Both the position numbers and the translations under genes were made by a program. A stretch of DNA of 32,000 nucleotides from Geotalea daltonii FRC-32 (GTDB lineage: Bacteria > Desulfobacterota > Desulfuromonadia > Geobacterales > Geobacteraceae): contig NC_011979.1 of the NCBI RefSeq assembly GCF_000022265.1, positions 180,001 through 212,000 of the forward strand. The letters run 5' to 3'. The notes under the pieces are model-generated. The model saw nothing but the letters and a program-made list of their open reading frames with translations. It was not told the origin of the DNA and did no database searches. Below, in pieces: positions 3,448-26,503 of this stretch; within the stretch, counting starts at the first letter, position 1, and every line of letters starts with the position of its first letter.

Positions 3448-3448
3448 G

Positions 3449-11774: not shown

Positions 11775-11806
11775 GGGCGTAACTCCTTGGATGGATAAAG
11801 CGGTAG

Positions 11807-12265: not shown

Positions 12266-12308
12266 GGGATCTCCCTTCTTATGTGTTTCATCGGACGGTT
12301 AAGTGAAC

Positions 12309-12479
12309 GACTGCCGCGACTTCGTCCGTTCGCTCGGTCGCCACAGCTGCGGACCTTGCACTGTTTGTTAATCTCCCCACTGGAGGATCAGCTTCCATGC
12401 GCTGGTGCCTTGTTCAGCTTCTGGCGGGTGTCCGCTCGCCGCTGCGGCTCTGTCACTCACTCCCGAAGCCGCGGCAGTC
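12309..12479 (-). repeat. Family A repeat, copy A2
   Basis: Same internal arms as A1. The terminal stem GACTGCCGCGACTTCG / CGAAGCCGCGGCAGTC pairs at 15 of 16 positions. Lies between iorB and the ACT gene. Confidence 0.8.
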
Positions 12480-12486
12480 AAATTGC

Positions 12487-13062
12487 TCAAGCTGCCTCAG
12501 CTCCGCCGCGAAGGGCGGCCAGATTGACTTCGACTCCCTTGTCCCGCGAGATTTCCCGGACCACTCCTTCGACGACAGTGGCATCGATGGGGAGCCCCTT
12601 CATCACCGAACCGACCATGACCATGTTGACCGCCTTGGCGTTGCCCGCTTCTTTGGCAATCTGCAGGGCGTCGATGCCGTGGGCTTCAGGGCAGCCCTTG
12701 GCTATTTGCGCCTCCACGTCGGTGGGGTAGGTGGCCAGCCCCGAAGCAACCGTGCTGGGGTTGATGGTGACGTTGTTGTAGACCAGCTTGCCTTTCGGCT
12801 TGAGGTAGTGCAGGTAGCGAAGGGCCTCAAGGGGCTCGAAGGAGATGAGGATATCGGCGGTACCGGGCATGACGACCGGGGAATGGACCTTGTCGCCGAT
12901 GCGGACGAAGGAGATGACGCTCCCTCCCCGCTGGGCCATGCCGTGAACCTCGTTCTGTTTCACATCCATACTGCTGGCCAGGGCGCTTTCTGCCAATACC
13001 CTGGAGGCCATGAGCACCCCCTGGCCCCCCACTCCGGCGATGACGATGTTAAATACTTTCAT
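12487..13062 (-). CDS. iorB: Indolepyruvate:ferredoxin oxidoreductase, beta subunit
   Basis: NIVIAGVGGQGVL motif and ~190 aa. Overlaps the iorA 3' end by 14 nt. Confidence 0.9.
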   Translation of the reverse strand: MKVFNIVIAGVGGQGVLMASRVLAESALASSMDVKQNEVHGMAQRGGSVISFVRIGDKVHSPVVMPGTADILISFEPLEALRYLHYLKPKGKLVYNNVTINPSTVASGLATYPTDVEAQIAKGCPEAHGIDALQIAKEAGNAKAVNMVMVGSVMKGLPIDATVVEGVVREISRDKGVEVNLAALRGGAEAA

Positions 13063-14821: not shown

Positions 14822-14894
14822 GGACGCATATCCTTTCTGTGGCGTTCGGCCCCCTCAATGGGAAAGCCGAGGAAATGGAGTTCCGGTGATCTGA

Positions 14895-16238
14895 TCATTT
14901 CGGTCTGTTGTCTATGAACCGCTTGGCTTTGCCTTCACTGCGCGGGATGGTTCCGGGAGGCATCAGGGTAACCTTGACGGTGATGCCGACCACGTCCTTG
15001 ATGTCCCGCACCAGATTTTTGACGATATCCCGGGTTGCCCGGTCGTCGCTGACCCGCTGGTTTTGGCTGACCGTCATGGTCTCCGCCACATACTTGTAGG
15101 CATGCTGGTCCGTTACCTCGATCCTGACTTCAACCTCGTCCAGAGCCCCATTACGCTCAACGACAACCAGGTAATGGGGGGTGACACCAGGGTGCTTGAG
15201 GATTATCGATTCTATCTGGGACGGGAAAAAGTTGACCCCCCGGATAATCAACAGGTCGTCGGTGCGGCCGACCAGCTTTTTCATCTTGACCAGGGTACGG
15301 CCACAGGCACAAGACTCCTGGCTGAGGCTCGTCAGGTCGCGGGTCCGGTAGCGAAAGAGGGGCTGTCCCTCATTGGCGATGGTAGTGAAGACCAGCTCCC
15401 CCTCTTCGCCCAGGGGCAACACTTCCCCGGTCTCCGGGTTAATGATTTCGGGGTAGAAATAATCCTCATTGATATGAAGACCGTTGCGGGCTTCGTGACA
15501 TTCGCAGGCCACACCCGGCCCGATGATCTCGGACAGCCCGTAAATATCACAGGCCTTGATGCCGAAATCCTCCTGAATCTTGCCGCGCATGGAGTCGGTC
15601 CAGAATTCAGCCCCCAAGACGGCGGTACGCAGCTTGAGCTTTCTGAAATCAATTCCCATCTCGGTTCCCACTTCCTGGACATGCATGAGAAAGGAGGGGG
15701 TAACCGTCAAGGCGGTGGTGCCGAAATCCTGCATGAGCATGATCTGCTTTTGGGTGTTGCCACCGGAGATGGGTATGACGGCAGCTCCGATCTTGATGCC
15801 TCCGTAATGGGCTCCCAGTCCGCCGGTAAAAAGGCCGTAACCATAGATATTCTGCAGGACATCGTTCTTGGTTATACCGGCACTTGTCAGGCAGCGGGCC
15901 ATGACTTCGGACCAGGTATCCAGATCATTGCGGGTGTAGCCGACAATGATCGGTTTGCCGGTGGTTCCCGAAGTGGCATGGTATTCGACAACGTCCTCCT
16001 GTTTGGCGGTGAAGAGGTTGAATGGGTAGTTGTCGCGGATATCATCCTTGACGGTAAAAGGGAGTCTCCTGATATCGTCCAGGGTTTTGATCTGGGCGGG
16101 TTTCACTCCGTTTTCGTCGAGTCTTTTCCGGTAAACCGGATTATTGTCATAGACACGGCTGACAGTTTGCTGCAGCCGCCCCAGCTGAATACTCTTCATT
16201 TCGTTACGACTGCTGGTCTCAACATGGTTCCAGATCAT
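14895..16238 (-). CDS. paaK: Phenylacetate-CoA ligase family (AMP-forming aryl/acyl-CoA ligase)
   Basis: MIWN...LQLGRLQQTVSRVY N-terminus typical of PaaK. AMP-binding motif HATSGTTGKP. Confidence 0.9.
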   Translation of the reverse strand: MIWNHVETSSRNEMKSIQLGRLQQTVSRVYDNNPVYRKRLDENGVKPAQIKTLDDIRRLPFTVKDDIRDNYPFNLFTAKQEDVVEYHATSGTTGKPIIVGYTRNDLDTWSEVMARCLTSAGITKNDVLQNIYGYGLFTGGLGAHYGGIKIGAAVIPISGGNTQKQIMLMQDFGTTALTVTPSFLMHVQEVGTEMGIDFRKLKLRTAVLGAEFWTDSMRGKIQEDFGIKACDIYGLSEIIGPGVACECHEARNGLHINEDYFYPEIINPETGEVLPLGEEGELVFTTIANEGQPLFRYRTRDLTSLSQESCACGRTLVKMKKLVGRTDDLLIIRGVNFFPSQIESIILKHPGVTPHYLVVVERNGALDEVEVRIEVTDQHAYKYVAETMTVSQNQRVSDDRATRDIVKNLVRDIKDVVGITVKVTLMPPGTIPRSEGKAKRFIDNRPK

Positions 16239-16488: not shown

Positions 16489-17358
16489 TCATTTTTCTTC
16501 AGAATAATCGTAGAAGCCTTTACCCGCCTTGCGTCCCACATAGCCCGCCTTGATCATGTTCCGCAAAAGGCCGGGAGCGGCGAAGCGCTCCTGCTTCATG
16601 TATTCGTGGAAGATGTTGATGACGTGGTAGCCGATGTCCACCCCCGCGAAATCCTGGAACTCCAACGGCCCCATGGGCATGTTGCAGCCGAGCTTCATGG
16701 CGGTGTCGATGTCCTCTGCCGATGCCACCCCTTCCTCAAGGAGCCGCACCGCGTCGATGATGTAGGGGACAAACAAACGGTTGACGACGAAGCCGGGGGT
16801 GTCCTTGCAGGTGATGGCAGTCTTGCCGATCTTTTTCGCCATCTCCAGGGCGAGATCTTTGGTGGCGGGTGCGGTCTGCAGGGCCGGGATCACCTCCACC
16901 AGTTTCATCACCGGCACCGGGTTGAAGAAGTGCATGCCGATGAAGTTGGCCGGGTTCTTCACCAGGGCCGCCATTTCGGTGATGGAGATGGAAGAGGTAT
17001 TGGTGGCGTAGATGGTATCGTCGCCGCAGACGGCATCCAGTTTAGCGAACAGTTCCTTTTTGACATTGATATCCTCGAAGACCGCCTCGAAGATGAAAGG
17101 TACGTCTTTGAGGCTCGCCACGTCGGTGGAGAAGCTGATCCTTCCCAGGGTCTCCTCCATCTCCTTCTCGGTGATGGTCCCCTTCTTCACCACCCGCTCC
17201 AGGCTCTTGACGATAGTCTTCTTCGCCCGTCCCCAGACCTCTTCGCTCATATCCACCACTTTCACCTGCAGACCGGCCATGGCGGCAATCTGGGCAATGC
17301 CGGCCCCCATGCTCCCTGCTCCTGCCATACCTACTGTTTTGATATCTTCAAGTTTCAT
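16489..17358 (-). CDS. hbd: 3-hydroxybutyryl/3-hydroxyacyl-CoA dehydrogenase, copy 1
   Basis: VGMAGAGSMGAGIAQ NAD fold. Typical Hbd length and C-terminal domain. Confidence 0.9.
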   Translation of the reverse strand: MKLEDIKTVGMAGAGSMGAGIAQIAAMAGLQVKVVDMSEEVWGRAKKTIVKSLERVVKKGTITEKEMEETLGRISFSTDVASLKDVPFIFEAVFEDINVKKELFAKLDAVCGDDTIYATNTSSISITEMAALVKNPANFIGMHFFNPVPVMKLVEVIPALQTAPATKDLALEMAKKIGKTAITCKDTPGFVVNRLFVPYIIDAVRLLEEGVASAEDIDTAMKLGCNMPMGPLEFQDFAGVDIGYHVINIFHEYMKQERFAAPGLLRNMIKAGYVGRKAGKGFYDYSEEK

Positions 17359-17399
17359 TGTCTGTTCTCCTCATATGGTTTAGTCAAAAAACTTGGTTA

Positions 17400-17504
17400 G
17401 CCACGAATGAAAGAAGCAGTTGTCGCGTCCCCCTTTAAGAAAGGGGGGTAACTTCCAATGTTTGTTTTCGATTTTCATTCGTGTTCATTCGTGTAATTCG
17501 TGGC
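17400..17504. repeat. Nested palindromic element (family B) with a CCCCCTTT-AAG-AAAGGGGG hairpin core
   Basis: Outer inverted repeat GCCACGAATGAA ... TTCATTCGTG (twice in tandem) ... ATTCGTGGC. Inner hairpin at 17429-17448. Lies between crt1 and hbd1. Confidence 0.6.
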
Positions 17505-17521
17505 AAAAGATGCTTTTAGGG

Positions 17522-18304
17522 TTATTCGTTCTTGAACTCCGGCCTTCTCTTCTCCACAAAAGCGGTCAGCCCTTCCTTGGCATCGTGGGTCTTGCTGTTT
17601 TCCGCCGAATATTTGCGCTCCACGGCCAGGGCCTGCTCCAGGGGAAAGTCTATCCCCTCATAAACCGCAGCCTTGATGTAACCCAGGGCCTTGCCCGCTC
17701 CTGCGGCCAGTTCCTGGGCGAACTGCATCACTTCCGCCTGGAAGTTCTCCGGCTCGATCAGCTTGTCCACCAGGCCTATTGCCAAAGCTTCCTGGGGGCT
17801 CATGGTCCTGCCGCGCAGCAGAATGTCCAGGGCCTTGGACAGCCCCACCAGTCGCGGCAGCCGCTGGGTGCCACCGGCGCCGGGGATGATGCCGAGCCCT
17901 GCCTCAGGCAGGCCGATCAGCGCTTTGCCCGAGGTCATCAGTCGGTAGTCGCAGGCCAGGGCCAGTTCGCAGCCCCCACCCAGGGCATGGCCGTTGATGG
18001 CGGCGATGACGATCTTCTTCATGCGGTTGAGGATATTGTTGGCACCCTGCAGGAGCTTGGAGAACTGTTCCGCTTCGGCGGCATCCTGGGCCGCCATCTC
18101 CTTTATATCGGCCCCGGCGATGAAGGCCTTTTCCAGGGCGCTGGTGATGATGACCACGGTAATATCTTCCATCTGCTCGGCTTCGCTGAAGGCCTTGAAC
18201 AGCTCCTGACCGAACACGCCGTTCAAGGGATTGGTGGGGGGACGGTTGAGGCTGATGGTCAGGACGCGGTCGTCCTTTTTCAGGGTTATGAATTCGTAAG
18301 ACAT
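17522..18304 (-). CDS. crt: Enoyl-CoA hydratase (crotonase family), copy 1
   Basis: AAINGHALGGGCELALACD oxyanion-hole/active-site block; 260 aa. Confidence 0.9.
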   Translation of the reverse strand: MSYEFITLKKDDRVLTISLNRPPTNPLNGVFGQELFKAFSEAEQMEDITVVIITSALEKAFIAGADIKEMAAQDAAEAEQFSKLLQGANNILNRMKKIVIAAINGHALGGGCELALACDYRLMTSGKALIGLPEAGLGIIPGAGGTQRLPRLVGLSKALDILLRGRTMSPQEALAIGLVDKLIEPENFQAEVMQFAQELAAGAGKALGYIKAAVYEGIDFPLEQALAVERKYSAENSKTHDAKEGLTAFVEKRRPEFKNE

Positions 18305-18366
18305 GGTAGTGCTCCTGTAGTTAAGGATGGTTCCCTTAAGGGATTGAGGGGATTTGCCTCTAGTAC

Positions 18367-18533
18367 GGCAGTCGTGGCATCGTCCGTTCGTTCTGTCGCC
18401 ACAGCTGCGGACCTTGCGGTGCCGCCCGTGTAATTATGCACATTTTTGAAGTGGCATTTCCCCTTTGTTCAACATGCGGCGGGTGTCCGCTCGCCGCTGT
18501 GGCTCGTCACTCACTCCCGATGCCACGACTGCC
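18367..18533 (-). repeat. Family A repeat, copy A4 (best-paired copy)
   Basis: Perfect 16-bp terminal stem GGCAGTCGTGGCATCG / CGATGCCACGACTGCC. Inner stems GCCACAGC/GCTGTGGC and GCGGAC/GTCCGC. Lies between the thiolase1 stop and the crt1 start. Confidence 0.85.
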
Positions 18534-18561
18534 TGCTCCAACAGTGTGCCTGGTAATCCTG

Positions 18562-19752
18562 TCAGCTCACCTTCAGCACAACCGATGCAGCGGTATCCCC
18601 GGCGGCGCAGCCGGAGAAAAGGAGATACCCTCCACCCTTGACTGCCAGTTCCTCGATCCCTTCGATCATCAATCGAGCCCCCGTTGCTGCCTGGGGATGG
18701 CCGAAGATCAGGGAGGAGCCGTAGTTGTTCATGTTGTTCAGATCCAGCCCCATGACCTTAGCCATGACGATGTCGTTGGCGGCGAAGGGATTGTGGGTCT
18801 TGACGGCCCCCAGGTCTTTGACCTTGATGCCTGCTTGATCCAGCGCCATCTGGGCTGAGGGAGCGACGGCTGCCGCCATGTGCGCCTTTTTGGTGCGGGC
18901 GTAGCCGAAAGAGACCACCTGGATCTCGATGCCGGGGTTGGTGCTCAGTTCCTTTGCCTTCTCCCGGGTGGTGACGCAGATACCGGCATTGCCATCGGCG
19001 GGATGGGTCTGGGCGCCGAAGGTATGCACTCCATCGGGAAGCACCGGCTTGAGTGTGGCCAGCCCTTCCCTGGTGCTGGTAGTTATCCCTTCATCGGCTT
19101 CCAGGAGAATCGATTTCTTTTTGGAGATCTGTACCTCCGCGGGAAACATGTAGCGTTGCTGGAACTCCCGATCCCTGGCCAGGGCATCCAGATACTGCTC
19201 CTGCCGCCGCAGGGTGACGGCATCGCATTCTTCGCGGCTGACACCGTACTCTTTGGCCACGTTTTCCGCCGTCTGGATCATGGCTCCCCCGGCCCAGGGA
19301 TCCCTGCCGAAGTTGTCCATGACCCAGTCCTCGGCAAGCTGCTGTCCGCCGGGACCGTTGGGATTGGGCCAGACGGCATGGGGACCGTTAGAGAGCCGGT
19401 CCGCCATGAGGCACCAGCTGTGATTGAACAAGCCGGTTTCTACCCCCATGCCCGCCTGGTAAATAGCGAAGGTGGAGGTGGAGCAGGCCTGGCTGACGAG
19501 GATGCCGGGGGAAGCCTCCGCCCCCATCAGGGCAGCGGCCCAAGGGCCTGAGTAGAACCACTGTTTCTGGTAGACGGTGCTGCCGACCAGGACATAGTCG
19601 ATGGTCTTCGGGTCCCACCCCTTGCTCTCGAAAAATCGCTTCGAGGTGGCGGCTCCGAGAACGATGGCGTTTTCGTTGGCCAGGGTTCCCTGCCACTTGG
19701 CGAAGGGGGTGCTGTAGTAACCGCGGTAGGGGATATAGGCTTTTTGCAACAT
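18562..19752 (-). CDS. Thiolase family acyl-CoA C-acyltransferase, copy 1
   Basis: Active-site blocks QACSTS (nucleophilic Cys), GHPQAATGARL (His) and SGCAAGD (second Cys); 396 aa. Confidence 0.9.
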   Translation of the reverse strand: MLQKAYIPYRGYYSTPFAKWQGTLANENAIVLGAATSKRFFESKGWDPKTIDYVLVGSTVYQKQWFYSGPWAAALMGAEASPGILVSQACSTSTFAIYQAGMGVETGLFNHSWCLMADRLSNGPHAVWPNPNGPGGQQLAEDWVMDNFGRDPWAGGAMIQTAENVAKEYGVSREECDAVTLRRQEQYLDALARDREFQQRYMFPAEVQISKKKSILLEADEGITTSTREGLATLKPVLPDGVHTFGAQTHPADGNAGICVTTREKAKELSTNPGIEIQVVSFGYARTKKAHMAAAVAPSAQMALDQAGIKVKDLGAVKTHNPFAANDIVMAKVMGLDLNNMNNYGSSLIFGHPQAATGARLMIEGIEELAVKGGGYLLFSGCAAGDTAASVVLKVS

Positions 19753-19880: not shown

Positions 19881-21968
19881 TTAGATCCTGATCCTGCCGT
19901 CCACGGCAAAGGCGCCGTCTGCGAAAGCCATCAGCGGATTCATGTCCATCTCCTGGATCATGGGCAGATCGCCGAGCAGTTGGGAGGCGCGCTGGATGAT
20001 GTTCATTACCGCTTCCCTATTGATCCCCTTCTCACCGCGAACACCGTTCAGCAGCGCTGCAGTTCGGAGTGAGGAGAGCATCTCCTCCGCTTCGACCTGT
20101 GTCACCGGGGCAATCTTGAAAGAAACATCCTTGAGTACCTCCACGTAAATCCCACCCAGGCCGAACATCACCAGGTGCCCCAATCCCCGTTCGGCGGTGG
20201 CGCCGATGATCAGTTCCCTGCCGCCGGGAAGGAATTTCTGCACGAAGAACTTAAGCGTGCCGAAGTGACCCAGGCGGCGCTGCATATCCTCGACCGTCGC
20301 CTGCACCGAGGCGGCGTCCTTGAGATTGACGGCCACTCCCCCCATGTCGCTCTTATGGTCGATTGCCTCGCAGTCCACCTTGACCACCACCGGGTAGCCG
20401 ATCCGGTCTGCGGCGGCAACCGCTTCGGCTGTGTTTACCGTGACGCCCCAGCCCGCCACCGGTATGCCGTAGGCCTCGAAGATGGTGTAGACATCGGTGG
20501 CTGAAAGGACACTCCGTCCGGCCTGGCGGGCCTCTTCGACGATGGCCCGGGCCTTTGCCGCATCCACATTGGCGAACGTCTGCGGTTTGCCGATGTCACG
20601 CTGCTTCAGCCGGCCGTACCTGGTCAGGGCGCCCATGGCCTTGGCGGCGTCGCTGGGATTGGCATAGAAGGGGACCCCTCCCTTTTTGAGAATATCCCGG
20701 GTGATTTGGTACCGTTCCTGGCTCAGGTCGGTCATGAAGTTGCAAACGATCGGCTTTTTGCCCAGCCTGCTGACTTCGACGATCTGCCGGGCCACCTCGT
20801 GGGTGTCGGTGAAGGGGGCGGTGACGAAATTTATGAAAATGCTGTCCACTCCTTCCTCATGGAGGAGCACGTCAAGGGCGCCGCGGAACTGGGGACCGCC
20901 GGCGGTGGCAACAACATCGATGGGGTTTTCCAGTGCGGCCTCGGGAAACTGGCTTTCCTTCAGGCGCTCGATGGATCTTTCCGAGAGCTTCGGCACGTCC
21001 AGCCCGCAGGAGACGAGCACGTCGGTGGCGATGACCGCCGGCCCGCCGGTGTTGGTGATGATGCCGACCCGGTTTCCCTTGGGAATGGGCTGGGTGGCGA
21101 AGGCCATGGCAGCCCGCGCCATCTCCCCCTCGTCGGTGAAGGAGAGGATGCCGGTCTTCTCGAAAATCAGTTCGGTCGCTATGTCCACCCCGGCCAGGGA
21201 GCCGGTATGGGAGGAGGCCGCCTTGGCGCCCTGTTCGGTGCGCCCTGCCTTCATGGCCAGAATCGGTTTTTTTGCGGTTACTTGATGGGCAGCCTCAAGG
21301 AATGCTTTTGGGTCGGAGAATCCTTCCGTATAGAGGATCACTGCCTTGGTCCCCTCGTCTGCGCCGTAATAGCGGACGATCTCGGGGATGGAAATATCGC
21401 AGGCATTGCCGTTGGAGGCATAGAGACGCTGGCCGACCCCCAGATCCGCCAGGGCCTGCATGATCAGGGCGCCGACACCCCCACTCAAGGCCACCACTGA
21501 GACATAGCCGGGCTCGGGATAGGTAAAGGTGAAGTTGCAGTACGCCTTCAGTTCGGGATCGGAGTTGATGATTCCCTGGCAGTTGGGACCGAATACCCGC
21601 ACCCCATACTCCTTGCCCCGGCGCAGGAAATCCTCCTGGAGGCGTGCTCCCTCCTCACCCAGCTCGCTGAAGCCGGCAGAGTTGATGATGACCGCCTTGA
21701 TTCCTTTCCTGCCGCAATCCTCGATGGTCTGCGGCACGAATTTACTGGGAATGATCACGTGGGCTAAATCCACCTCTCCCGGGATCTCCTCCAGGGTTTT
21801 GTAGGCCTTGATGCCGCACACCTCCGGTGCAGTTGGGTTCAGGGGATAGATCTCTCCCTTGTAGCCGTACTTCTGCAGGTTGCGGATGATGACGTTGCCG
21901 ATGGAGAGCTCCTTGGTGGAAGCGCCGACAATGGCGACGGCCCGTGGTTTGAAAAGTGAATCCAGCAT
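19881..21968 (-). CDS. ADP-forming acyl-CoA synthetase (fused alpha/beta: CoA-binding, ligase-CoA and ATP-grasp domains)
   Basis: N-terminus LFKPRAVAIVGAS...YPLNP (CoA-binding). ~695 aa fused architecture typical of NDP-forming acetyl/aryl-CoA synthetases. Start is 2 nt after the upstream stop (TAG-CC-ATG). Confidence 0.9.
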   Translation of the reverse strand: MLDSLFKPRAVAIVGASTKELSIGNVIIRNLQKYGYKGEIYPLNPTAPEVCGIKAYKTLEEIPGEVDLAHVIIPSKFVPQTIEDCGRKGIKAVIINSAGFSELGEEGARLQEDFLRRGKEYGVRVFGPNCQGIINSDPELKAYCNFTFTYPEPGYVSVVALSGGVGALIMQALADLGVGQRLYASNGNACDISIPEIVRYYGADEGTKAVILYTEGFSDPKAFLEAAHQVTAKKPILAMKAGRTEQGAKAASSHTGSLAGVDIATELIFEKTGILSFTDEGEMARAAMAFATQPIPKGNRVGIITNTGGPAVIATDVLVSCGLDVPKLSERSIERLKESQFPEAALENPIDVVATAGGPQFRGALDVLLHEEGVDSIFINFVTAPFTDTHEVARQIVEVSRLGKKPIVCNFMTDLSQERYQITRDILKKGGVPFYANPSDAAKAMGALTRYGRLKQRDIGKPQTFANVDAAKARAIVEEARQAGRSVLSATDVYTIFEAYGIPVAGWGVTVNTAEAVAAADRIGYPVVVKVDCEAIDHKSDMGGVAVNLKDAASVQATVEDMQRRLGHFGTLKFFVQKFLPGGRELIIGATAERGLGHLVMFGLGGIYVEVLKDVSFKIAPVTQVEAEEMLSSLRTAALLNGVRGEKGINREAVMNIIQRASQLLGDLPMIQEMDMNPLMAFADGAFAVDGRIRI

Positions 21969-21970: not shown

Positions 21971-23218
21971 CTAATTACCCTCCTCAAGCTGTTCGATAAA
22001 AGCTTCGACATTGGTTTTGGTCTGTTCATCGGAAACGCAGCGCATGTCGTTGAGATCGCCGGAAATAACCAGGTGGGGAATGCCGGTTTCTCTTTCGAGA
22101 CGCTGGTGCAGCCCGTAACGGCTGTTTGAGTTGTAGGGACAGGTCTTGGCGTCGTGATAGATAATGCCGTCGATGGCGAATTTGTTGAGCATGGCCTTGA
22201 TATAACCTTCCTTGTAGGTGTCGGAGCGGACGATGAAGAGTTCCAGATATGCTTTAGCCATGCTGCGTAAGGGATCACTGTCGTCGAAGGCCGGGAAGAT
22301 CCAGCTGCTGCAGTAGGTGGAGGCGACAACGCCTGTCCCGAGACCGGAAAAAAGCTCCGAATGCTGGCGCAGCCGCCCCCAGATCGGCATGCCGTCCCAG
22401 TAGATACGGAAAGCTTCCCCCTCCACGGCCCCCACACCAGCAGAAATCCTCTGGCGCAGTTCGGCCAGCAGAACCTGGTAATAGCCAACAGCTTCCTGGG
22501 TTCCCCGCAGGACGACCGCCGGTCCCATGTGGATGGTACCGTCAAAGAAGGTCAGCGGGGCAGGCGATGCCGTGGCTGTCTCCAGGACCTCCTTCCACAA
22601 TTGGGTGCACTCCCGGGAAAGGGCCACCGTTTCCCGGAGCCTGGCCATATCCAGCCTCGTTCCGGTGATCTGCTCCAGTATGGGGATCAGGGCCTCGATC
22701 TGACCGGCAACATCGTTGATGTGGGCGGCAGTTACTTCATTGACATTCTTGGGAGAGGTAATACCGATGCAGGGGACCTTGAATTCCCTTGCATACCAGG
22801 CAAACCAGTCCTGCACGTCGCGACACTGGTTGGTGTTGTAAACCAGGACATCGGGTTTGGGTACGGACTCAATACCCGGATAAGCCTTGGCCAGAGGGGT
22901 GAACCCTTTCAGGTAGGCGCCGATGTCCGAGGTGAGGTAGGAACAGATGTCGGGGGAGTAGCCGATGGCTGTCGCCTCCGGTATCAGGTCCGTTGCCAGC
23001 CGCGTCGCCCCGAGCATGGCGGCATGATTCTCCGGAAAATGCACGGCAAAGCCCATGGCCCGCAGCAGTTCCGCCGGACCTACACTGGTGCACCAGGCAA
23101 CCTTCTGCTTTCCGGTGGTGGCGGATTCATTCAAGCCGAAGAAATAGTCAGCCATGATTTTGTTCATCAGGTCGGTGGCCTGGATCTTTTTTCTCACTGT
23201 CTTGCTCTCTTCAGCCAT
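21971..23218 (-). CDS. Single-subunit HgdB/BcrB/BadD-family Fe-S protein (2-hydroxyacyl-CoA dehydratase D-component-like; possibly double-cubane-cluster-type)
   Basis: Family-typical blocks KVAWCTS, SPDICSY, NTNQCRD, STYCSSW, DAKTCPYNS. I prefer the start at 23218 (M19 of the track ORF) because AAGGAG lies 6 nt upstream and it overlaps the activator stop as ATGGCTGA. This gives 415 aa. Confidence 0.85.
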   Translation of the reverse strand: MAEESKTVRKKIQATDLMNKIMADYFFGLNESATTGKQKVAWCTSVGPAELLRAMGFAVHFPENHAAMLGATRLATDLIPEATAIGYSPDICSYLTSDIGAYLKGFTPLAKAYPGIESVPKPDVLVYNTNQCRDVQDWFAWYAREFKVPCIGITSPKNVNEVTAAHINDVAGQIEALIPILEQITGTRLDMARLRETVALSRECTQLWKEVLETATASPAPLTFFDGTIHMGPAVVLRGTQEAVGYYQVLLAELRQRISAGVGAVEGEAFRIYWDGMPIWGRLRQHSELFSGLGTGVVASTYCSSWIFPAFDDSDPLRSMAKAYLELFIVRSDTYKEGYIKAMLNKFAIDGIIYHDAKTCPYNSNSRYGLHQRLERETGIPHLVISGDLNDMRCVSDEQTKTNVEAFIEQLEEGN

Positions 23219-24011
23219 TGCTGTCTCCTTGAGATCTGTCATCCAAAGCATAGAGGGCGGCGCCGATGGCACCTGTCAGTTGTGGGAACGGGGGCAGCAT
23301 GACCGGGCGGCCGATCATCTCTTCCGTCATTCGGACGATGTGGGGGTTGTGGGCTACGACCCCTCCGGTCATGACAACGTGCTCAGTCAGGGATTCCATT
23401 TCCAGAACCCTTTTGATCACCGAATAGAAGATCCCCTTGACGATATCGGCAACTTTTTTGCCATGGCGGATACTCTCCAGAACCTCCGTACCGGAAAAAA
23501 CGGTGCAGAAGCTGCCAAGTTTGACCATTTCCTCGGATTGGCCGGCCAATTCATTCATCTTTTCCAGGGGAAGATCGAGACGGGCAGCCATCTCTTCAAG
23601 AAAAGCCCCGGTGCCGGCGGCGCACTTGCGGTTCATTTTGAAGCTGCTGCGTTTGCCGGCACTGTCCAGCTTGATGATCTTGTTGTCCTGACCGCCGATG
23701 TCGATGATGGAGAGCTCACCGGAAAAGTAATGACGGCAGCCATTGGCCAGACAGCCGATTTCCGTCTTGCTTGTTTCGGTGATAAAGGGAACATTGGCTC
23801 TGCCGTAGCCGGTGGTAACAGCCCGTGCCACCTGGGGGCGGGTCGCTCCTGCCATCTCCATGGAAATGTCCAGACAGGCAGCGGCTGTTACGGAAAAATC
23901 GGTCCCGGACTTTTTGACGGCATGGCCGAGCAGAGTGCCTTTCCCGTCTATGACAGCAACCTTTGTTCTTGATGCTCCTATGTCCAGCCCGATAAAAACA
24001 GGATTGGTCAT
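23211..24011 (-). CDS. HgdC/BcrA/BadF-type ATPase (activator/reductase of the adjacent Fe-S protein)
   Basis: ASKHA-fold motifs GLDIGASRTKV and DIGGQDNK. Cluster-bridging Cys contexts NRKCAAGTGAFLE and GSFCTVFSGTEV, as in 2-hydroxyglutaryl-CoA dehydratase activator. Confidence 0.9.
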   Translation of the reverse strand: MTNPVFIGLDIGASRTKVAVIDGKGTLLGHAVKKSGTDFSVTAAACLDISMEMAGATRPQVARAVTTGYGRANVPFITETSKTEIGCLANGCRHYFSGELSIIDIGGQDNKIIKLDSAGKRSSFKMNRKCAAGTGAFLEEMAARLDLPLEKMNELAGQSEEMVKLGSFCTVFSGTEVLESIRHGKKVADIVKGIFYSVIKRVLEMESLTEHVVMTGGVVAHNPHIVRMTEEMIGRPVMLPPFPQLTGAIGAALYALDDRSQGDSNG

Positions 24012-24079
24012 TTCTCAGATCCTTTTTCCCATGAAGTGGAGAGAGGTGTGTTCTTATGCAAAATTTTAGAATAATGTTT

Positions 24080-24096
24080 TGCAGATTGCATGCCCA
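24080..24096 (-). promoter_or_regulatory. Sigma-54 (-24/-12) promoter for the ATPase / Fe-S protein / acs operon
   Basis: The minus strand reads TGGGCAT-gcaat-CTGCA, that is GGCAT-N5-CTGCA with correct GG-N10-GC spacing. Lies ~70 nt upstream of the ATG at 24011. A very AT-rich stretch lies just upstream. Confidence 0.6.
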
Positions 24097-24191: not shown

Positions 24192-24356
24192 CGACGATAT
24201 GTCGTCGGTTGCTGCCGCTGCAGAACTATCAAGAACCACATTCGAGGGGGATCAAAAAAGGGTCCAAATATGCAATTAAGAAAGGTATTTGGCGTGGGTG
24301 AAGGAGGGTTTAAGGATTGACGACGATATTTCGTTGGAAAGACGATATCTCGCCGC
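24192..24356. promoter_or_regulatory. Three copies of a GACGATAT-N-TCG motif, candidate enhancer sites for the adjacent sigma-54 activator
   Basis: CGACGATATGTCGTCGG (24192-24208; arms CGACGA/TCGTCG are palindromic), CGACGATATTTCGTTGG (24321-24337) and AGACGATATCTCGCCGC (24340-24356). They lie 100-260 bp upstream of the -24/-12 element. Confidence 0.35.
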
Positions 24357-24391: not shown

Positions 24392-26371
24392 TTACGGGGT
24401 TTCAGCTGACAGATGTCTTCTTCTGATGCCTAATTTCTTCATTCTGGAGTTGAGAGTTGTCGGTTTCATGCCGAGGATCTCGGCAGCGCCATTCCTGCCC
24501 CGGATGCGCCAGCCGGTCTTTTCCAGGACAGAGTTGATGTGCATCCGCTCCATTCCCTCTATGGTCATGGGTTGAGCGGTGGCAGCTGAGACACCATCCT
24601 GAATATCCATCACCAGTGATGCACCATTGTTGAGAATCATGGCCCTTTCTACAAGATTTCTCAGTTCCCTGATATTTCCCGGCCAGTGGTAGCGCTCCAT
24701 GGCGTCCATGTTCTTCTTGGGAATGCGCTCGATGGTTTTGCCGAAGACTTTGCCGAATTCCTCAACCATAGCCCAGACGAGCAGGGGAATATCTTCCCGC
24801 CGCTCGCGCAACGGCGGAACCGAAATGGGGAACACGTTGAGCCGGTAGTAAAGATCTTCGCGAAAGGTTCCCTCTTTGACTGCCTGAACAAGGCTCTTGT
24901 TTGTGGCAGCGATAACGCGCACATCCACCTTGATGGGTTTAGGGTTGCCCAGCCGCTCGAACTGGCCCTCTTGAATGACCCGCAGTAGTTTGGACTGCAG
25001 TTCCAGGGGTAGTTCGCCGATTTCATCGAGAAAAATGGTCGAGCCATTGGCGGCCTCGAAGCGGCCGATCTGGGTGGAGACGGCTCCTGTATACGCTCCT
25101 TTTTCATGACCGAACAGTTCCGCTTCGATAAGTGCTCCGGGCAGTGCGGCGCAATTGACCTTAATCATTGCCCGTGCCATACGGGGGCTTGCATTGTGGA
25201 TCGCCCTGGCTATCAGTTCTTTGCCGGTACCGGTTTCACCCAGGATAAGCACCGTGGAACCGGTACTCGCCACCTGCTTGATCTGGACAAGGACGTTCCG
25301 GATGGCATCTGATTTGCCGATGATTTCCTCATGTTTGTATTCCACGTGGATCTGGTCACGGAGATAAACGTTCTCAGCCTCCAGGCGGTCCTTCAGTTGC
25401 TTGATCTCCGCCAGGGCATTTTGAATTTTCTGATCGGCCCGCTTACGTTCCAGGGCATTGGCAAAGATTTCCCACAACAGGCGGAGTCTTTGGGTAAGCT
25501 CATCGGGCCATTCTCTTTTGACCCGGTATGAAACGAAAGTGATGGCACCGACAATGATGCCGCCGATGCTTGCCGGGATAAACATGATAGATTTTATGCC
25601 CCCCTGATCCTTGCAGTACTTTTTTTCGCTCCAGAATCGGTCAGGCAGTTCATCGATATCGGAAACGCGAAAAGTTTCTCCCCCGTGGATCATGCTGATC
25701 CAGACCGGTATCAGGCCGACAATGGTCGGTGGCGGCTGTTTGATCCCGGGCATGGCGAAAGAATGGGTGATATGTAAACTGTTGCCGTCGGGTGAGAGAT
25801 GCCAGATGCTGCAACGCTCGAATCCCAGGAACTCAACCAGTTTCTGCAGCCCTTCCTCGATTTTTCGGTCAACTTCACTCACCGACAGATTGATGAAGGC
25901 GGAGGAAAGGTTGGAGAGAAAAGCCTCCACTTGCAGTCGTTCTGCCTGAACGCTTTCTTTTATCTTTTGCTCGGTGATATCCTGGACTATCAACCCACAG
26001 CGATAAACTGTTCCATCGTTGCTCATAAGGGGATAAGAGCAGACCAGCCAGAACTTTTCCTGGATAGACCGGTCCGGAAGGGGCTTGTGCACAACCAGTT
26101 CAAGATCCACAAACGCCCGGCCTTCGGTAATGGTGCGGGATACTACCGGCTCCACAGCCCGGGCGATCATCTGATCGACCTCCCTCAGCGTCCGGCCCGC
26201 ATGGTCCTTTACCGGCAGATCGGTCATGGTTGCCATTCGATCATTGATGGCTATGTAGCGCAAGCCGCAATCGATGATGGCAATACCGAACTGGTTCAGT
26301 TCGAACAACTGTTCAAGGTTGTTGAATATGTCTTCACCCTTGCTTGGCGCAGAATTGAATGTGGCATTCAT
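24392..26371 (-). CDS. Sigma-54-dependent transcriptional activator with PAS and GAF sensor domains
   Basis: AAA+ motifs [21 protein letters not shown] and [11 protein letters not shown]-terminal [25 protein letters not shown]-terminal PAS-like and GAF-like regions. I prefer the start at 26371 (GGAAGG SD). Confidence 0.9.
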
Positions 26372-26503
26372 AGCTGAACCTTCCAAAGCAGAATATTGTT
26401 TTACAGAATAACACACTGTTTTTAAACAATCAATCTTCGGCTTGCTGGTGATGCATACTGGTTGGCTATGGCAAAATAAAATGATTTTTGTTTATCGATG
26501 GGG

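What the first reader, a model, noticed from the sequence alone, without database searches (positions are those of the whole stretch)
21971..24096. Orphan ATP-dependent Fe-S module: a single-subunit HgdB/BcrB-family protein and an HgdC-type ATPase, coupled to an ADP-forming acyl-CoA synthetase under its own sigma-54 promoter
Characterised relatives use two different large subunits: HgdAB, FldBC and LcdAB dehydratases, and BcrBC in class I benzoyl-CoA reductase. Here only one 415-aa large subunit is present. It is translationally coupled on both sides: an ATGGCTGA overlap with the ATPase gene and TAG-CC-ATG into the acs gene. It has 8 Cys spread over both halves (track numbering C61, C110, C150, C168, C222, C321, C378, C412). 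That is the arrangement expected if one polypeptide supplies all cluster ligands, as in E. coli YjiL/YjiM and the Carboxydothermus double-cubane cluster protein DCCP with its reductase DCCP-R, whose physiological substrates are unknown. The context points to an organic acid or acyl-CoA substrate for this uncharacterised enzyme class: an NDP-forming CoA synthetase, then thiolase-crotonase-Hbd, a dedicated PAS-GAF enhancer-binding protein, and a -24/-12 promoter at 24080-24096.
Basis: partly seen in the sequence, partly recalled or inferred. Interest (0 to 1): 0.72.

Follow-up and report, generated by a model that had tools for sequence, protein, structure and literature searches.

The report
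Single-subunit radical dehydratase-type Fe-S enzyme operon
This Geotalea daltonii operon encodes an uncharacterised but very widespread one-subunit relative of the two-subunit, ATP-activated iron-sulfur enzymes that dehydrate 2-hydroxyacyl-CoAs or reduce benzoyl-CoA, and its conserved neighbours suggest it feeds amino-acid-derived (probably aromatic) 2-hydroxy acids into beta-oxidation.

Summary
On the minus strand of a Geotalea daltonii FRC-32 window, an HgdC/HadI-type ATPase (23211-24011), one 415-aa HGD-D protein (21971-23218) and an ADP-forming acyl-CoA synthetase (19881-21968) are translationally coupled. No second HGD-D gene lies in the 32-kb window, in 77 of 80 orthologous genome loci or in 72 of 80 metagenome loci.

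The DCCP/YjiM-like reading is not supported. The protein is a catalytic-type subunit: HadB is the best match, then MbdO and BzdO, and DCCP is far weaker. Only C92, C132 and C360, the canonical three-Cys [4Fe-4S] ligands, are conserved family-wide. Only four of the seven DCCP motif cysteines align. C43 and C303 (and C204 in closer orthologs) are clade-specific and unexplained.

New here: a PanE/ApbA-type 2-oxoacid reductase is the most faithful extra neighbour and occurs fused to the HGD-D protein or to the ATPase. Indolepyruvate oxidoreductase, PaaK, thiolase and sometimes 4-hydroxybenzoyl-CoA reductase co-occur.

Best reading (0.55): a homodimeric (R)-2-hydroxyacyl-CoA dehydratase, probably acting on aryllactyl-CoA. 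The sigma-54 promoter is plausible and has candidate upstream repeats, but it is lineage-specific. Verdict: new variant of a known kind.

The parts
21971..23218 (-). 415-aa single HGD-D family protein. It is a catalytic-type (HadB/BcrB/BzdO-like) subunit. C92, C132 and C360 are the predicted three-Cys [4Fe-4S] ligands. E63 corresponds to HadB E55 and BzdO E65. C43, C303 and C204 are clade-specific.
   Evidence: PF06050, E 5.6e-71. PDB matches: HadB 3.6e-49, MbdO 4.7e-40, BzdO 4.5e-20, DCCP 3.7e-9. Foldseek TM-scores: HadB 0.80, DCCP 0.69, HadC 0.66. Cys conservation. DCCP comparison.
23211..24011 (-). 266-aa HgdC/HadI-type ATP-dependent activator ('archerase'). Its stop codon overlaps the HGD-D start (ATGGCTGA).
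   Evidence: PF01869. TIGR00241 acyl-CoA dehydratase activase scores 185 bits, above its 125 cutoff. Best PDB match is HadI 4eht at 1e-46, with the two cluster cysteines (KCAAGTG, FCTVF) aligned. Overlap read.
19881..21968 (-). 695-aa ADP-forming (NDP-forming) acyl-CoA synthetase, an alpha-beta fusion. Its start lies 2 nt after the HGD-D stop codon.
   Evidence: CoA_binding + Succ_CoA_lig + ATP-grasp_5. Below every NCBIfam equivalog cutoff. Present next to the HGD-D gene in 62 of 80 genome loci.
24080..24095 (-). Candidate sigma-54 -24/-12 element GGGCATGCAATCTGCA, 84 nt upstream of the ATPase ATG.
   Evidence: Sequence. GG-N10-GC spacing is correct, but at 3 mismatches it is not above chance on its own. 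A related element, TGGTATGCAAGATGCA, occurs in one close ortholog locus, L022.
24192..24356 (.). Three copies of a 17-nt motif CGACGATATnTCG(T/C)(C/T)G at 24192-24208, 24321-24337 and 24340-24356. These are candidate upstream activator (enhancer-binding protein) sites, about 100-260 bp upstream of the -24/-12 element.
   Evidence: the repeat finder family D1. The core ATATCGTC occurs 6 times in the window against 0.32 expected, and 3 of those are in this 380-nt intergenic region.
24392..26416 (-). Sigma-54 enhancer-binding protein (PAS-GAF-AAA+-HTH_8) with a GAYTGA loop. The probable true start gives 659 aa (about 26371).
   Evidence: Pfam. GAYTGA read in the translation. The gene is called as 659 aa on an independent contig.
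16489..19752 (-). Thiolase (18562-19752), crotonase (17522-18304) and 3-hydroxyacyl-CoA dehydrogenase (16489-17358), downstream of the synthetase gene. These are the beta-oxidation steps for the predicted enoyl-CoA product.
   Evidence: Pfam and NCBIfam. An ortholog of this thiolase (64-87% identity) follows the module in 28 of 80 genome loci and directly precedes the HGD-D gene in Asgard archaeal loci.
10842..16238 (-). PaaK-type aryl-acetate-CoA ligase (14895-16238), indolepyruvate:ferredoxin oxidoreductase alpha (13049-14821) and beta (12487-13062), ACT-domain protein (11807-12265) and PanE/ApbA-family 2-oxoacid reductase (10842-11774). This is the same conserved module as the triad. In other lineages these genes lie directly upstream of the ATPase.
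   Evidence: Pfam and NCBIfam. Synteny IorA-IorB-PaaK-(ACT)-PanE-ATPase-HGD-D-synthetase. PanE fused to HGD-D or to the ATPase.
8213..10180 (-). MctC/ActP-like monocarboxylate:cation symporter. It is a likely substrate importer for the region.
   Evidence: PF00474. NF058657 monocarboxylic acid transporter, 546 bits, below its 670 cutoff. Membership in the module is inferred from position only.

Best explanation
The operon encodes a two-component radical enzyme.

Components:
- A homodimeric HgdC/HadI-type activator carrying a bridging [4Fe-4S] cluster.
- A single catalytic-type HGD-D protein that most likely works as a homodimer, rather than as the alpha-beta heterodimer of all characterised 2-hydroxyacyl-CoA dehydratases.

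Proposed mechanism, inferred by homology to HadBC/HadI and to the DCCP:DCCP-R complex:
1. The reduced activator docks on the twofold axis of the dimer.
2. ATP hydrolysis drives one electron into the [4Fe-4S] cluster held by C92, C132 and C360, which has one iron free of protein ligands.
3. The thioester carbonyl of an (R)-2-hydroxyacyl-CoA binds that iron and is reduced to a ketyl radical.
4. Hydroxide leaves, the beta-proton is removed (E63 is the candidate acid/base), and the electron returns to the cluster.
5. The product is a 2-enoyl-CoA. ATP is needed only catalytically.

Proposed pathway, inferred from conserved synteny and gene fusions:
1. The PanE-like NAD(P)H reductase reduces an amino-acid-derived 2-oxo acid to the (R)-2-hydroxy acid.
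2. The acid is converted to its CoA ester. In this window the only candidate enzyme is the ADP-forming synthetase. Other lineages add an AMP-forming ligase or a CoA-transferase-family protein.
3. The HGD-D enzyme dehydrates the CoA ester.
4. Crotonase, 3-hydroxyacyl-CoA dehydrogenase and thiolase cleave the enoyl-CoA to acetyl-CoA plus a CoA ester two carbons shorter.

Substrate. Aromatic acids are the likeliest: phenyllactyl-CoA to cinnamoyl-CoA to benzoyl-CoA, and the 4-hydroxy analogue from tyrosine. Branched-chain or C4 2-hydroxy acids are not excluded.

Regulation. In G. daltonii the operon is probably switched on by the adjacent PAS-GAF sigma-54 activator.
For: Shown here:
- Catalytic-type subunit. 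It makes a full-length match to HadB (E 3.6e-49, or 9e-77 with a profile), ahead of MbdO, BzdO and DCCP. Accessory subunits are barely detected: HadC 2e-4, MbdN 1.5e-3, BzdN 0.011.
- Fold ranking agrees: HadB TM 0.80, MbdO 0.80, BzdO 0.77, DCCP 0.69, HadC 0.66.
- The three HadB/BzdO cluster cysteines and the Glu are invariant in 80 orthologs and family-wide. BzdO ligands C95, C128 and C380, Glu65, and the same coordination in HadB are described in PMC11971306.
- The activator's best match is HadI and it passes the TIGR00241 cutoff.
- No partner gene. There is one HGD-D ORF in the window. A second HGD-D ORF occurs in only 3 of 80 genome loci and 8 of 80 metagenome loci, and there it belongs to a separate module with its own two ATPase genes.
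- A homodimeric acceptor served by a homodimeric activator on a shared twofold axis has a structural precedent in DCCP:DCCP-R, PMC9351452.
- PanE link. The PanE-like gene lies in the flanks of 44 of 80 genome loci and within 400 nt of the HGD-D gene in 21 of 80 metagenome loci.
- PanE-HGD-D fusion proteins exist in three independent sources: P0122, P0145 and P0131. PanE-ATPase fusions sit next to the single HGD-D gene in L142 and L091.
- Beta-oxidation genes are co-conserved.
- Aromatic context. IorAB and PaaK occur in 19-20 of 80 loci in one gene string with the module. 4-Hydroxybenzoyl-CoA reductase-like genes are adjacent in 5-7 loci. The L025 alpha subunit scores 1297 bits against a cutoff of 994.55.

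From established knowledge:
- PanE-family enzymes make (R)-2-hydroxy acids (D-pantoate; the D-mandelate dehydrogenase structures are among the PDB hits). This is the stereochemistry these dehydratases use.
Against: - No biochemistry exists for any member of this clade.
- The protein is almost as similar to the benzoyl-CoA reductase subunit MbdO as to HadB. It falls below every NCBIfam equivalog cutoff: HadB 221 of 750, BcrB 157 of 486.
- All characterised dehydratases are heterodimers and use a CoA-transferase, which this operon lacks.
- The conserved extra cysteines C43 and C303 (and C204) have no role in the HadB mechanism. C303 aligns with a DCCP cluster ligand, so an additional metal site and a different chemistry are possible.
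- The homodimer is inferred, not shown. The structure model is only moderate (pLDDT 71.8, low across residues 64-116) and gives no coordinates.
- Substrate identity rests on neighbourhood alone. IOR and PaaK clusters are also thought to serve aromatic amino acid biosynthesis, and the direction of flux is unknown.
- Other PF06050 genes elsewhere in the G. daltonii chromosome could not be excluded with these tools.
Confidence: 0.55

Rival explanations
1. It is an ATP-consuming reductase rather than a dehydratase: a minimal, homodimeric relative of class I benzoyl-CoA reductase or DCCP. It would use stoichiometric ATP hydrolysis to push low-potential electrons into an aromatic or otherwise hard-to-reduce CoA ester, or a small molecule. 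The clade-specific cysteines would serve as an extra cluster or as proton/hydrogen donors.
For: - Similarity to MbdO (E 4.7e-40, TM 0.80) is nearly as high as to HadB.
- The one-ATPase plus one-acceptor architecture is that of DCCP/DCCP-R.
- C43 and C303 are conserved throughout the single-subunit clade, and C303 aligns with DCCP ligand C308.
- The context is aromatic and includes 4-hydroxybenzoyl-CoA reductase-like genes.
- In about 10% of loci a second HGD-D plus two-ATPase module sits nearby.
Against: - There is no BcrC/BzdN-type [8Fe-9S] partner, and there is one ATPase gene instead of two different ones.
- Only 4 of the 7 DCCP motif cysteines are present.
- The ATPase's best match is a dehydratase activator and it passes the acyl-CoA dehydratase activase model.
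- Recurrent fusion to, and adjacency with, a PanE-type 2-oxoacid reductase points to 2-hydroxy-acid chemistry.
- No dedicated ferredoxin or electron-input genes are conserved in the module.
Confidence: 0.2
2. It is the same enzyme chemistry run in the opposite physiological direction. The enzyme would hydrate a 2-enoyl-CoA to an (R)-2-hydroxyacyl-CoA. The ADP-forming synthetase would then release the acid and gain ATP, and the PanE-like enzyme would oxidise it to the 2-oxo acid. That acid would be decarboxylated by indolepyruvate oxidoreductase (a one-carbon chain shortening) or transaminated to an amino acid.
For: - ADP-forming acyl-CoA synthetases usually work in the ATP-forming direction (established knowledge).
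- The synthetase is the gene most tightly coupled to the HGD-D gene: TAG-CC-ATG junction, present in 62 of 80 loci.
- IorAB, PaaK and an ACT-domain protein share the string, and such clusters are associated with aromatic amino acid and aryl-acid interconversion.
- Many loci carry a separate AMP-forming ligase that could do the activation instead.
Against: - Co-conserved thiolase, crotonase and Hbd fit a catabolic flow from enoyl-CoA at least as well.
- Adjacent 4-hydroxybenzoyl-CoA reductase-like genes fit degradation towards benzoyl-CoA.
- Nothing in the sequence fixes the direction.
Confidence: 0.12
3. It is an ordinary alpha subunit of a heterodimeric dehydratase or benzoyl-CoA reductase whose partner subunit is encoded elsewhere in the genome.
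For: - It is a catalytic-type subunit with the canonical three Cys.
- The rest of the G. daltonii chromosome could not be searched.
- One paralog type, P0147, lacks the canonical Cys and could be a partner-like subunit in some organisms.
Against: - There is no second HGD-D ORF in the 32-kb window.
- None was found in 77 of 80 genome loci with flanks of up to 8 kb, or in 72 of 80 metagenome loci, across many bacterial and archaeal phyla.
- The HMM used would detect accessory-type subunits: HadC, MbdN and BzdN score 18-23 bits with the narrower profile.
- The clade is separate from the HadB and MbdO clades in a neighbour-joining tree.
- In characterised systems the two subunit genes are adjacent (established knowledge).
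- Butler et al. 2007 found no benzoyl-CoA reductase-like proteins in the FRC-32 draft genome.
Confidence: 0.05

Closest known systems
(R)-2-hydroxyisocaproyl-CoA dehydratase HadBC with activator HadI (Clostridioides difficile; PDB 3O3M, 4EHT), and the related HgdAB/HgdC, FldBC/FldI and LcdAB/LcdC
   Same: - HadB is the best sequence and fold match.
- The same three cluster cysteines and active-site Glu are present.
- HadI is the best match for the ATPase, with its cluster cysteines aligned.
- An upstream 2-oxoacid reductase step and downstream acyl-CoA enzymes are present in the pathway context.
   Different: - There is one subunit gene instead of alpha plus beta.
- Identity to HadB is about 28-31%, and the score is below the NCBIfam equivalog cutoff (221 against 750).
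- C43 and C303 are extra conserved cysteines. HadB has Ser and Pro at those positions.
- The reductase belongs to the PanE family, not the D-2-hydroxyacid dehydrogenase family (the family of the clostridial enzymes is from memory).
- An ADP-forming synthetase stands in place of a family III CoA-transferase.
- The hosts are respiring or sediment anaerobes and archaea rather than clostridia.
Class I benzoyl-CoA reductases (BcrABCD; BzdNOPQ, PDB 8S02; MbdONPQ, PDB 9G87/9GAI)
   Same: - It resembles the catalytic subunit MbdO/BzdO/BcrB: E 4.7e-40 and TM 0.80.
- The three-Cys aqua-[4Fe-4S] ligands and Glu65 of BzdO are conserved.
- The genomic context is aromatic.
   Different: - There is no BzdN/BcrC partner carrying the [8Fe-9S] cluster.
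- There is one ATPase gene, not two different ones.
- The score is below the BcrB and BzdO model cutoffs (157 of 486 and 75 of 449).
- G. daltonii uses the class II (Bam) reductase according to Butler et al. 2007.
Double-cubane cluster protein DCCP with DCCP-R (Carboxydothermus hydrogenoformans; PDB 6ENO, 7YYL) and E. coli YjiM/YjiL
   Same: - The architecture matches: one large HGD-D subunit plus one ATPase.
- DCCP is a proven homodimer with the activator on the twofold axis.
- The physiological substrate is unknown.
- C303 aligns with DCCP ligand C308.
   Different: - Only 4 of the 7 motif cysteines are present; the counterparts of C75, C94 and C340 are missing.
- Sequence similarity is weak and limited to the C-terminal half (E about 1e-9).
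- NF040772 scores 69 of 350.
- The neighbourhood is full of CoA-ester enzymes, whereas DCCP's channels are described as too narrow for CoA esters.
Phenyllactate pathway of Clostridium sporogenes (FldH, FldA, FldBC, FldI) and beta-oxidative conversion of cinnamoyl-CoA to benzoyl-CoA
   Same: - The proposed reaction sequence matches: arylpyruvate to aryllactate to aryllactyl-CoA to arylacrylyl-CoA.
- It co-occurs with an arylpyruvate oxidoreductase branch.
- A phenylpyruvate to cinnamoyl-CoA to benzoyl-CoA route, and a 'singular' FldB-like gene, were recently hypothesised for a benzene-degrading sulfate reducer in PMC13416013.
   Different: - Here the enoyl-CoA is predicted to be beta-oxidised rather than reduced.
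- The enzymes come from different families or subunit compositions.
- Nothing is experimentally shown for this clade.

Membership tests
2-hydroxyacyl-CoA dehydratase, component D (HadBC/HgdAB/FldBC/LcdAB) | PF06050 (HGD-D) fold with two Rossmann-like domains | tested here: met
   PF06050 E 5.6e-71 over residues 46-411. Foldseek TM 0.80 to HadB.
2-hydroxyacyl-CoA dehydratase, component D (HadBC/HgdAB/FldBC/LcdAB) | Three-Cys [4Fe-4S] site with one iron free for the substrate, plus the conserved active-site Glu | tested here: met
   C92, C132 and C360 align with the HadB cysteines and are invariant in 80 orthologs and across 50%-identity representatives. E63 aligns with the Glu of the HadB YPENQ motif (E55 by my count along the aligned chain) and is conserved in 80 of 80. 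Ligand identities come from PMC11971306 and PMC7317905.
2-hydroxyacyl-CoA dehydratase, component D (HadBC/HgdAB/FldBC/LcdAB) | Heterodimer of two different HGD-D subunits encoded by adjacent genes | tested here: not met
   One HGD-D ORF in the window. No second one in 77 of 80 genome loci or 72 of 80 metagenome loci.
2-hydroxyacyl-CoA dehydratase, component D (HadBC/HgdAB/FldBC/LcdAB) | Dedicated HgdC-type activator with a bridging [4Fe-4S] cluster | tested here: met
   TIGR00241 scores 185 bits against a 125 cutoff. HadI match 1e-46 with both cluster cysteines aligned. The gene overlaps the HGD-D gene.
2-hydroxyacyl-CoA dehydratase, component D (HadBC/HgdAB/FldBC/LcdAB) | Orthology to a characterised alpha subunit (curated equivalog score) | tested here: not met
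   NF052455 HadB scores 221 bits against a 750 cutoff. The clade is separate from HadB in the neighbour-joining tree.
2-hydroxyacyl-CoA dehydratase, component D (HadBC/HgdAB/FldBC/LcdAB) | Partner CoA-transferase that makes the 2-hydroxyacyl-CoA | tested here: not met
   None of the window genes scanned is a CoA-transferase, and an ADP-forming synthetase is present instead. An acetyl-CoA hydrolase/transferase-family gene occurs in only 8 of 80 loci.
2-hydroxyacyl-CoA dehydratase, component D (HadBC/HgdAB/FldBC/LcdAB) | ATP-primed, redox-neutral syn-elimination of water from an (R)-2-hydroxyacyl-CoA | not testable with these tools
   Needs anaerobic enzymology.
Class I benzoyl-CoA reductase | BcrB/BzdO catalytic subunit paired with a BcrC/BzdN subunit carrying an [8Fe-9S] cluster | tested here: not met
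   No accessory-type HGD-D gene was found. TIGR02260 scores 157 of 486 and TIGR03191 scores 75 of 449.
Class I benzoyl-CoA reductase | Two different ATPase subunits (BcrA/D, BzdP/Q) | tested here: not met
   There is a single 266-aa ATPase gene in the window and in most orthologous loci.
Double-cubane cluster protein (DCCP/YjiM) | Single HGD-D subunit (homodimer) with a single cognate ATPase | tested here: met
   The gene content matches. The oligomeric state itself was not tested.
Double-cubane cluster protein (DCCP/YjiM) | Seven-Cys motif supplying six ligands of the [8Fe-9S] cluster | tested here: not met
   By hhalign, DCCP C113, C143, C308 and C373 match C92, C132, C303 and C360. C75, C94 and C340 face A58, T72 and no Cys. 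Motif definition from PMC7317905.
Double-cubane cluster protein (DCCP/YjiM) | Curated family model NF040772 | tested here: not met
   68.9 bits against a 350 cutoff, covering the C-terminal half only.
Sigma-54-dependent operon | Adjacent enhancer-binding protein with an AAA+ sigma-54 interaction domain and a GAFTGA-type loop | tested here: met
   PF00158 E 1e-71, with PAS, GAF and HTH_8 domains. GAYTGA is present in the translation.
Sigma-54-dependent operon | -24 GG / -12 GC promoter at a suitable distance, with upstream activator sites | tested here: inconclusive
   The spacing is correct and the element is 84 nt upstream, but 3 mismatches is not above chance. Three 17-nt repeats 100-260 bp upstream are enriched. 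The element is shared only with L022 and L024; other lineages have IclR or no visible equivalent.

The most novel reading that the evidence does not exclude
A large clade found across bacteria and archaea (Desulfuromonadales, Desulfobacterales, Ignavibacteria, Aminicenantes, Anaerolineae, Thermoplasmatota, Asgard archaea) would encode a previously unrecognised homodimeric member of the HAD/BCR/DCCP superfamily. Its signature is five conserved cysteines (C43, C92, C132, C303, C360), with C204 added in closer orthologs. C43 and C303 would form an additional metal or thiol site in the pocket that holds the distal cubane in DCCP.

Together with a dedicated PanE-type reductase, this enzyme would open an undescribed, redox-neutral route from arylpyruvates through aryllactyl-CoA and arylacrylyl-CoA to (4-hydroxy)benzoyl-CoA plus acetyl-CoA. 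The ADP-forming synthetase would recover ATP. This would be a new way for sediment anaerobes to ferment or respire aromatic amino acids. It would also explain many 'benzoyl-CoA reductase' annotations in genomes that lack such a reductase.
Probability: 0.3. Interest if true: 0.78.

Novelty: new variant of a known kind. Interest (0 to 1): 0.6.

Why it matters
- All biochemically defined ketyl-radical dehydratases and class I benzoyl-CoA reductases need two different large subunits. The only one-subunit relative studied, DCCP, has no known physiological substrate.
- This clade is a one-subunit, catalytic-type member with a readable metabolic context: a PanE-type reductase (even fused to it), CoA synthetases, beta-oxidation enzymes, arylpyruvate oxidoreductase and 4-hydroxybenzoyl-CoA reductase. 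Substrate hypotheses are therefore directly testable.
- It is abundant. The first protein search returned 7876 hits with E<=1e-10 among 8000 scored candidates.
- It is routinely annotated as 'benzoyl-CoA reductase/2-hydroxyglutaryl-CoA dehydratase subunit', which can mislead metabolic reconstructions of sediment bacteria and Asgard archaea.
- If the homodimer and the aryllactyl-CoA role hold, it would show how the heterodimeric enzymes could have arisen by duplication. It would also add an anaerobic route for aromatic amino acid carbon.

Tried and rejected
1. DCCP-type six-Cys cluster. Rejected on motif spacing, a profile-profile alignment (4 of 7 Cys) and model scores.

2. A partner subunit nearby. 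I searched the six-frame window and 160 related loci with a family HMM. None was found, apart from a separate HGD-D plus two-ATPase module in 11 loci.

3. Conservation of the sigma-54 promoter across orthologous loci. It was not found beyond L022 and L024, so the promoter is lineage-specific and remains unproven.

4. Structure prediction. The 22-sequence alignment gave only pLDDT 71.8, with the cluster-binding region 64-116 poorly modelled. The tool returns no coordinates, so I could not test whether C43, C204 and C303 converge.

5. Literature searches. These covered Geobacter with 2-hydroxyglutaryl-CoA dehydratase, homodimeric dehydratases, PanE with dehydratase, YjiM/YjiL, and G. daltonii with sigma-54. 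No characterisation of this clade turned up. The Butler 2007 discussion concerns a different, orphan activator, Gmet_0544.

6. Substrate hints from curated models. The synthetase, AMP-ligase, thiolase, crotonase, Hbd and PanE-like proteins were all below their equivalog cutoffs or generic.

7. Rfam and tRNA scans of the window found nothing.

8. Some 50%-identity representatives (P0226, P0188, P0169, P0139) look like frameshifted chimeras. I excluded them from the tree.

Full report
**What is there.** The window comes from Geotalea (formerly Geobacter) daltonii FRC-32. The 415-aa protein is 100% identical to a protein NCBI names '(R)-2-hydroxyacyl-CoA dehydratase [Geotalea daltonii FRC-32]'. 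All relevant genes are on the minus strand. Reading in the direction of transcription, they are:

| Coordinates | Gene |
|---|---|
| 30481-31671, 29441-30223, 28408-29277 | thiolase, crotonase, Hbd (second copy) |
| 26568-28460 | FadE-like acyl-CoA dehydrogenase, followed by a strong terminator-like hairpin at 26515-26538 |
| 24392-26416 | PAS-GAF-AAA+-HTH sigma-54 activator |
| 24012-24391 | 380-nt AT-rich intergenic region |
| 23211-24011 | ATPase |
| 21971-23218 | HGD-D protein |
| 19881-21968 | ADP-forming acyl-CoA synthetase |
| 18562-19752, 17522-18304, 16489-17358 | thiolase, crotonase, Hbd |
| 14895-16238 | PaaK-type ligase |
| 13049-14821, 12487-13062 | indolepyruvate:ferredoxin oxidoreductase alpha and beta |
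| 11807-12265 | ACT-domain protein |
| 10842-11774 | PanE/ApbA-family reductase |
| 8213-10180 | monocarboxylate symporter |

**Check of the observation.** The ATGGCTGA overlap and the TAG-CC-ATG junction are exactly as described, and each downstream start has a good Shine-Dalgarno sequence. The eight cysteines exist. Orthologs begin at the ATG. The proposed -24/-12 element GGGCATGCAATCTGCA is at 24080-24095, 84 nt from the ATG.

**What kind of HGD-D protein it is.**
- Against solved structures, the best match is full-length to HadB, the substrate-binding alpha subunit of 2-hydroxyisocaproyl-CoA dehydratase (E 3.6e-49). Next come MbdO and BzdO, the catalytic subunits of class I benzoyl-CoA reductases. 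DCCP matches only weakly, through the C-terminal half.
- A profile of the clade sharpens this: HadB 9e-77, MbdO 6.5e-48, BzdO 2e-34, DCCP 1.6e-11. The accessory subunits HadC, MbdN and BzdN score 2e-4 to 1e-2.
- A moderate AlphaFold model (pLDDT 71.8) gives the same ranking by fold: HadB 0.80, MbdO 0.80, BzdO 0.77, DCCP 0.69, HadC 0.66.
- No curated equivalog model is passed: HadB 221 of 750, BcrB 157 of 486, BzdO 75 of 449, double-cubane 69 of 350.
- In a rough neighbour-joining tree, the orthologs form a tight clade inside a broader group that is separate from the HadB and MbdO clades.

The ATPase passes the 'acyl-CoA dehydratase activase' model. It matches HadI best, and both cluster cysteines align.

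**Cysteines.**
- Across 94 full-length representatives clustered at 50% identity, only C92, C132 and C360 are conserved throughout. They align with the three HadB cysteines.
- According to the BzdNO structure paper, BzdO uses C95, C128 and C380 plus a water ligand, 'the same coordination as HadB'.
- E63 aligns with BzdO Glu65 and HadB Glu55 and is invariant.
- The DCCP family motif is CX19CX18-19CX29CX166-170CX32-34CX32C. In a profile-profile alignment (98.6% probability), four DCCP cysteines have counterparts: C113, C143, C308 and C373 face C92, C132, C303 and C360. DCCP C75, C94 and C340 do not. The double-cubane reading is therefore not supported.
- Among 80 orthologs, C43 (80 of 80), C204 (79 of 80) and C303 (79 of 80) are conserved in addition to the canonical three, while C150 and C394 vary.
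- In the wider single-subunit clade (45-80% identity), the signature C43+C92+C132+C303+C360 is nearly universal.
- C43 follows the Trp that fronts the substrate head group in BzdO. C303 aligns with a DCCP ligand. Both therefore probably line the pocket that holds the acyl head in HadB and BzdO and the distal cubane in DCCP and BzdN. This placement is inference. I could not obtain coordinates to test it, so their role is unexplained.

**Is it really single?**
- A family HMM finds one HGD-D ORF in the six-frame window.
The 80 best loci (62-84% identity) come from Desulfuromonadales, Desulfobacterales, Burkholderiales, Alphaproteobacteria, Ignavibacteria, Bacteroidia, Anaerolineae, Aminicenantes, Planctomycetota, Thermoplasmatota and Promethearchaeota.
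- In 77 of those 80 there is no second HGD-D ORF within flanks of up to 8 kb.
- In 80 metagenome loci (46-77% identity), 72 are single.
- The exceptions carry a distinct upstream module: another HGD-D (26-29% identical) followed by a long and a short ATPase.
- A homodimeric acceptor served by a homodimeric ATPase on a common twofold axis is structurally established for DCCP:DCCP-R.

**Conserved context.**
- The commonest order outside Geobacter is IorA-IorB-PaaK-(ACT)-PanE-ATPase-HGD-D-synthetase-(AMP-forming ligase)-thiolase. G. daltonii has all of these in the window, in a rearranged order.
- Counts in 80 genome loci: ATPase 72, synthetase 62, PanE-like 44, AMP-ligase 29, thiolase 28, IOR 19-20, PaaK 19, ACT 17.
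- PanE is physically fused to the system in several lineages. PanE-HGD-D proteins are P0122 (728 aa, a Myxococcota MAG), P0145 (768 aa) and P0131. PanE-ATPase proteins of about 610 aa lie next to the single HGD-D gene.
- PanE-family enzymes reduce 2-oxo acids to (R)-2-hydroxy acids. The PDB hits include ketopantoate reductases and entries I recall as D-mandelate dehydrogenase (the stereochemistry is established knowledge). That is the configuration used by this dehydratase family.
- Five to seven loci also carry 4-hydroxybenzoyl-CoA reductase-like genes. One passes the equivalog cutoff, at 1297 against 994.55. Others carry TRAP transporters or an acetyl-CoA hydrolase/transferase-family gene.

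**How it most likely works.**
- Shown: the domain families, the cluster ligands, the single-subunit state, the synteny and the fusions.
- Inferred: the protein is a homodimeric (R)-2-hydroxyacyl-CoA dehydratase primed by one ATP-driven electron from the activator. The substrate is made from a 2-oxo acid by the PanE-like reductase followed by CoA activation. The enoyl-CoA product is hydrated, oxidised and thiolysed.
- The repeated association with arylpyruvate oxidoreductase, aryl-acetate-CoA ligase and 4-hydroxybenzoyl-CoA reductase makes aryllactyl-CoAs the leading candidates, giving cinnamoyl-CoA or 4-coumaroyl-CoA and then (4-hydroxy)benzoyl-CoA plus acetyl-CoA.
- A 2026 paper on a benzene-degrading sulfate reducer independently hypothesises this reaction sequence. 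It mentions a 'singular' FldB-like gene but does not characterise it.
- Alternatives are kept as rivals: an ATP-consuming reductase, the reverse physiological direction, and a distant partner subunit.

**Regulation.**
- The activator has a GAYTGA loop.
- The -24/-12 element has correct spacing but is not significant on its own.
- Three copies of CGACGATATnTCG lie 100-260 bp upstream. Their 8-mer core is about 19-fold enriched in the window, and half of its copies are in this intergenic region. This fits activator-binding sites.
- The arrangement is lineage-specific. Related elements appear only in L022 and L024, and other loci have IclR-type regulators.

**Novelty.** I found no paper describing this clade, its PanE linkage or its oligomeric state. 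The library is incomplete, so this is absence of evidence only. The DCCP review notes single-subunit systems only for the seven-Cys cluster IV. I rate this a new variant of a known kind, with interest 0.6.

Noticed in passing
window 16489-19752 and 28408-31671: A 3.2-kb direct duplication of the thiolase-crotonase-Hbd genes, 11,919 bp apart. The Hbd and crotonase parts are 94-100% identical in most 100-nt windows (proteins 98-99%). The thiolase part is only about 72-90% identical (protein 82%). This suggests recent duplication or gene conversion of part of the unit. Independent Logan contigs of this locus (L001, L002) end just after the synthetase gene, about 80 nt before the repeat begins.
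   Followed up: partly
window 31732-31995 and 8232-8479: The partial gene at the right end of the window is a paralog (76% nucleotide identity) of the 3' end of the MctC/ActP-like symporter gene at 8213-10180. So a symporter paralog also flanks the second thiolase-crotonase-Hbd copy.
   Followed up: no
window 6385-6513 and 7450-7578: Two 98%-identical copies of a 129-nt element with terminal inverted repeats (GGGGACGTTGTTTG ... CAAACAACGTCCCC), which looks like a MITE. They flank a small 129-aa ORF with an apparently hydrophobic N-terminus (6975-7364) in a low-GC stretch (46-50% GC). No Rfam family or tRNA matches in the window.
   Followed up: partly
L046:139-4089, L049:44-2839, L061:4354-7034; L106, L113, L117, L123, L127, L135, L141, L152 (for example L141:713-4274): In about 7% of related loci (11 of 160), a second and distinct module lies 1-5 kb upstream of the single-subunit system. 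It consists of another HGD-D protein (26-29% identical, lacking C43 and C303) followed by a long (about 470 aa) and a short (about 290 aa) BcrAD-type ATPase. In L046 there are two HGD-D ORFs plus two ATPases. It may be a reductase acting in the same pathway.
   Followed up: partly
P0147 (413 aa, Logan metagenome contig): A 38%-identical paralog has lost all three canonical cluster cysteines (Q, G and N in their place) but keeps the counterparts of C43, C204, C303 and C394. It could be a degenerate or accessory-like subunit. It hints that the extra cysteines form a site of their own.
   Followed up: partly
L024:1651-5060, L025:3582-6405, L061:12521-16317, L080:15039-17231, L081:1346-4339: 4-Hydroxybenzoyl-CoA reductase-like molybdenum enzyme genes lie next to the ATPase/HGD-D/synthetase module in several phyla. 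In L025 the alpha subunit passes the TIGR03194 cutoff. In some loci the alpha subunit is fused to the [2Fe-2S] gamma subunit.
   Followed up: partly
window 503-4858: Several long minus-strand ORFs (560-1042, 1103-1525, 1562-2476, 2542-3384) have no Pfam match. A 416-aa protein has weak BNR/Asp-box repeats (3608-4858). The content of this part of the window is unexplained.
   Followed up: no
L057:6729-9224, L062, L063 (Promethearchaeota); L044, L054, L055, L082 (Thermoplasmatota): Archaeal orthologs are 62-68% identical to the Geotalea protein, which suggests inter-domain transfer. In the Asgard loci the module's thiolase directly precedes the HGD-D gene. Aldehyde:ferredoxin oxidoreductase, the PanE-like gene and the ATPase lie downstream.
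   Followed up: no
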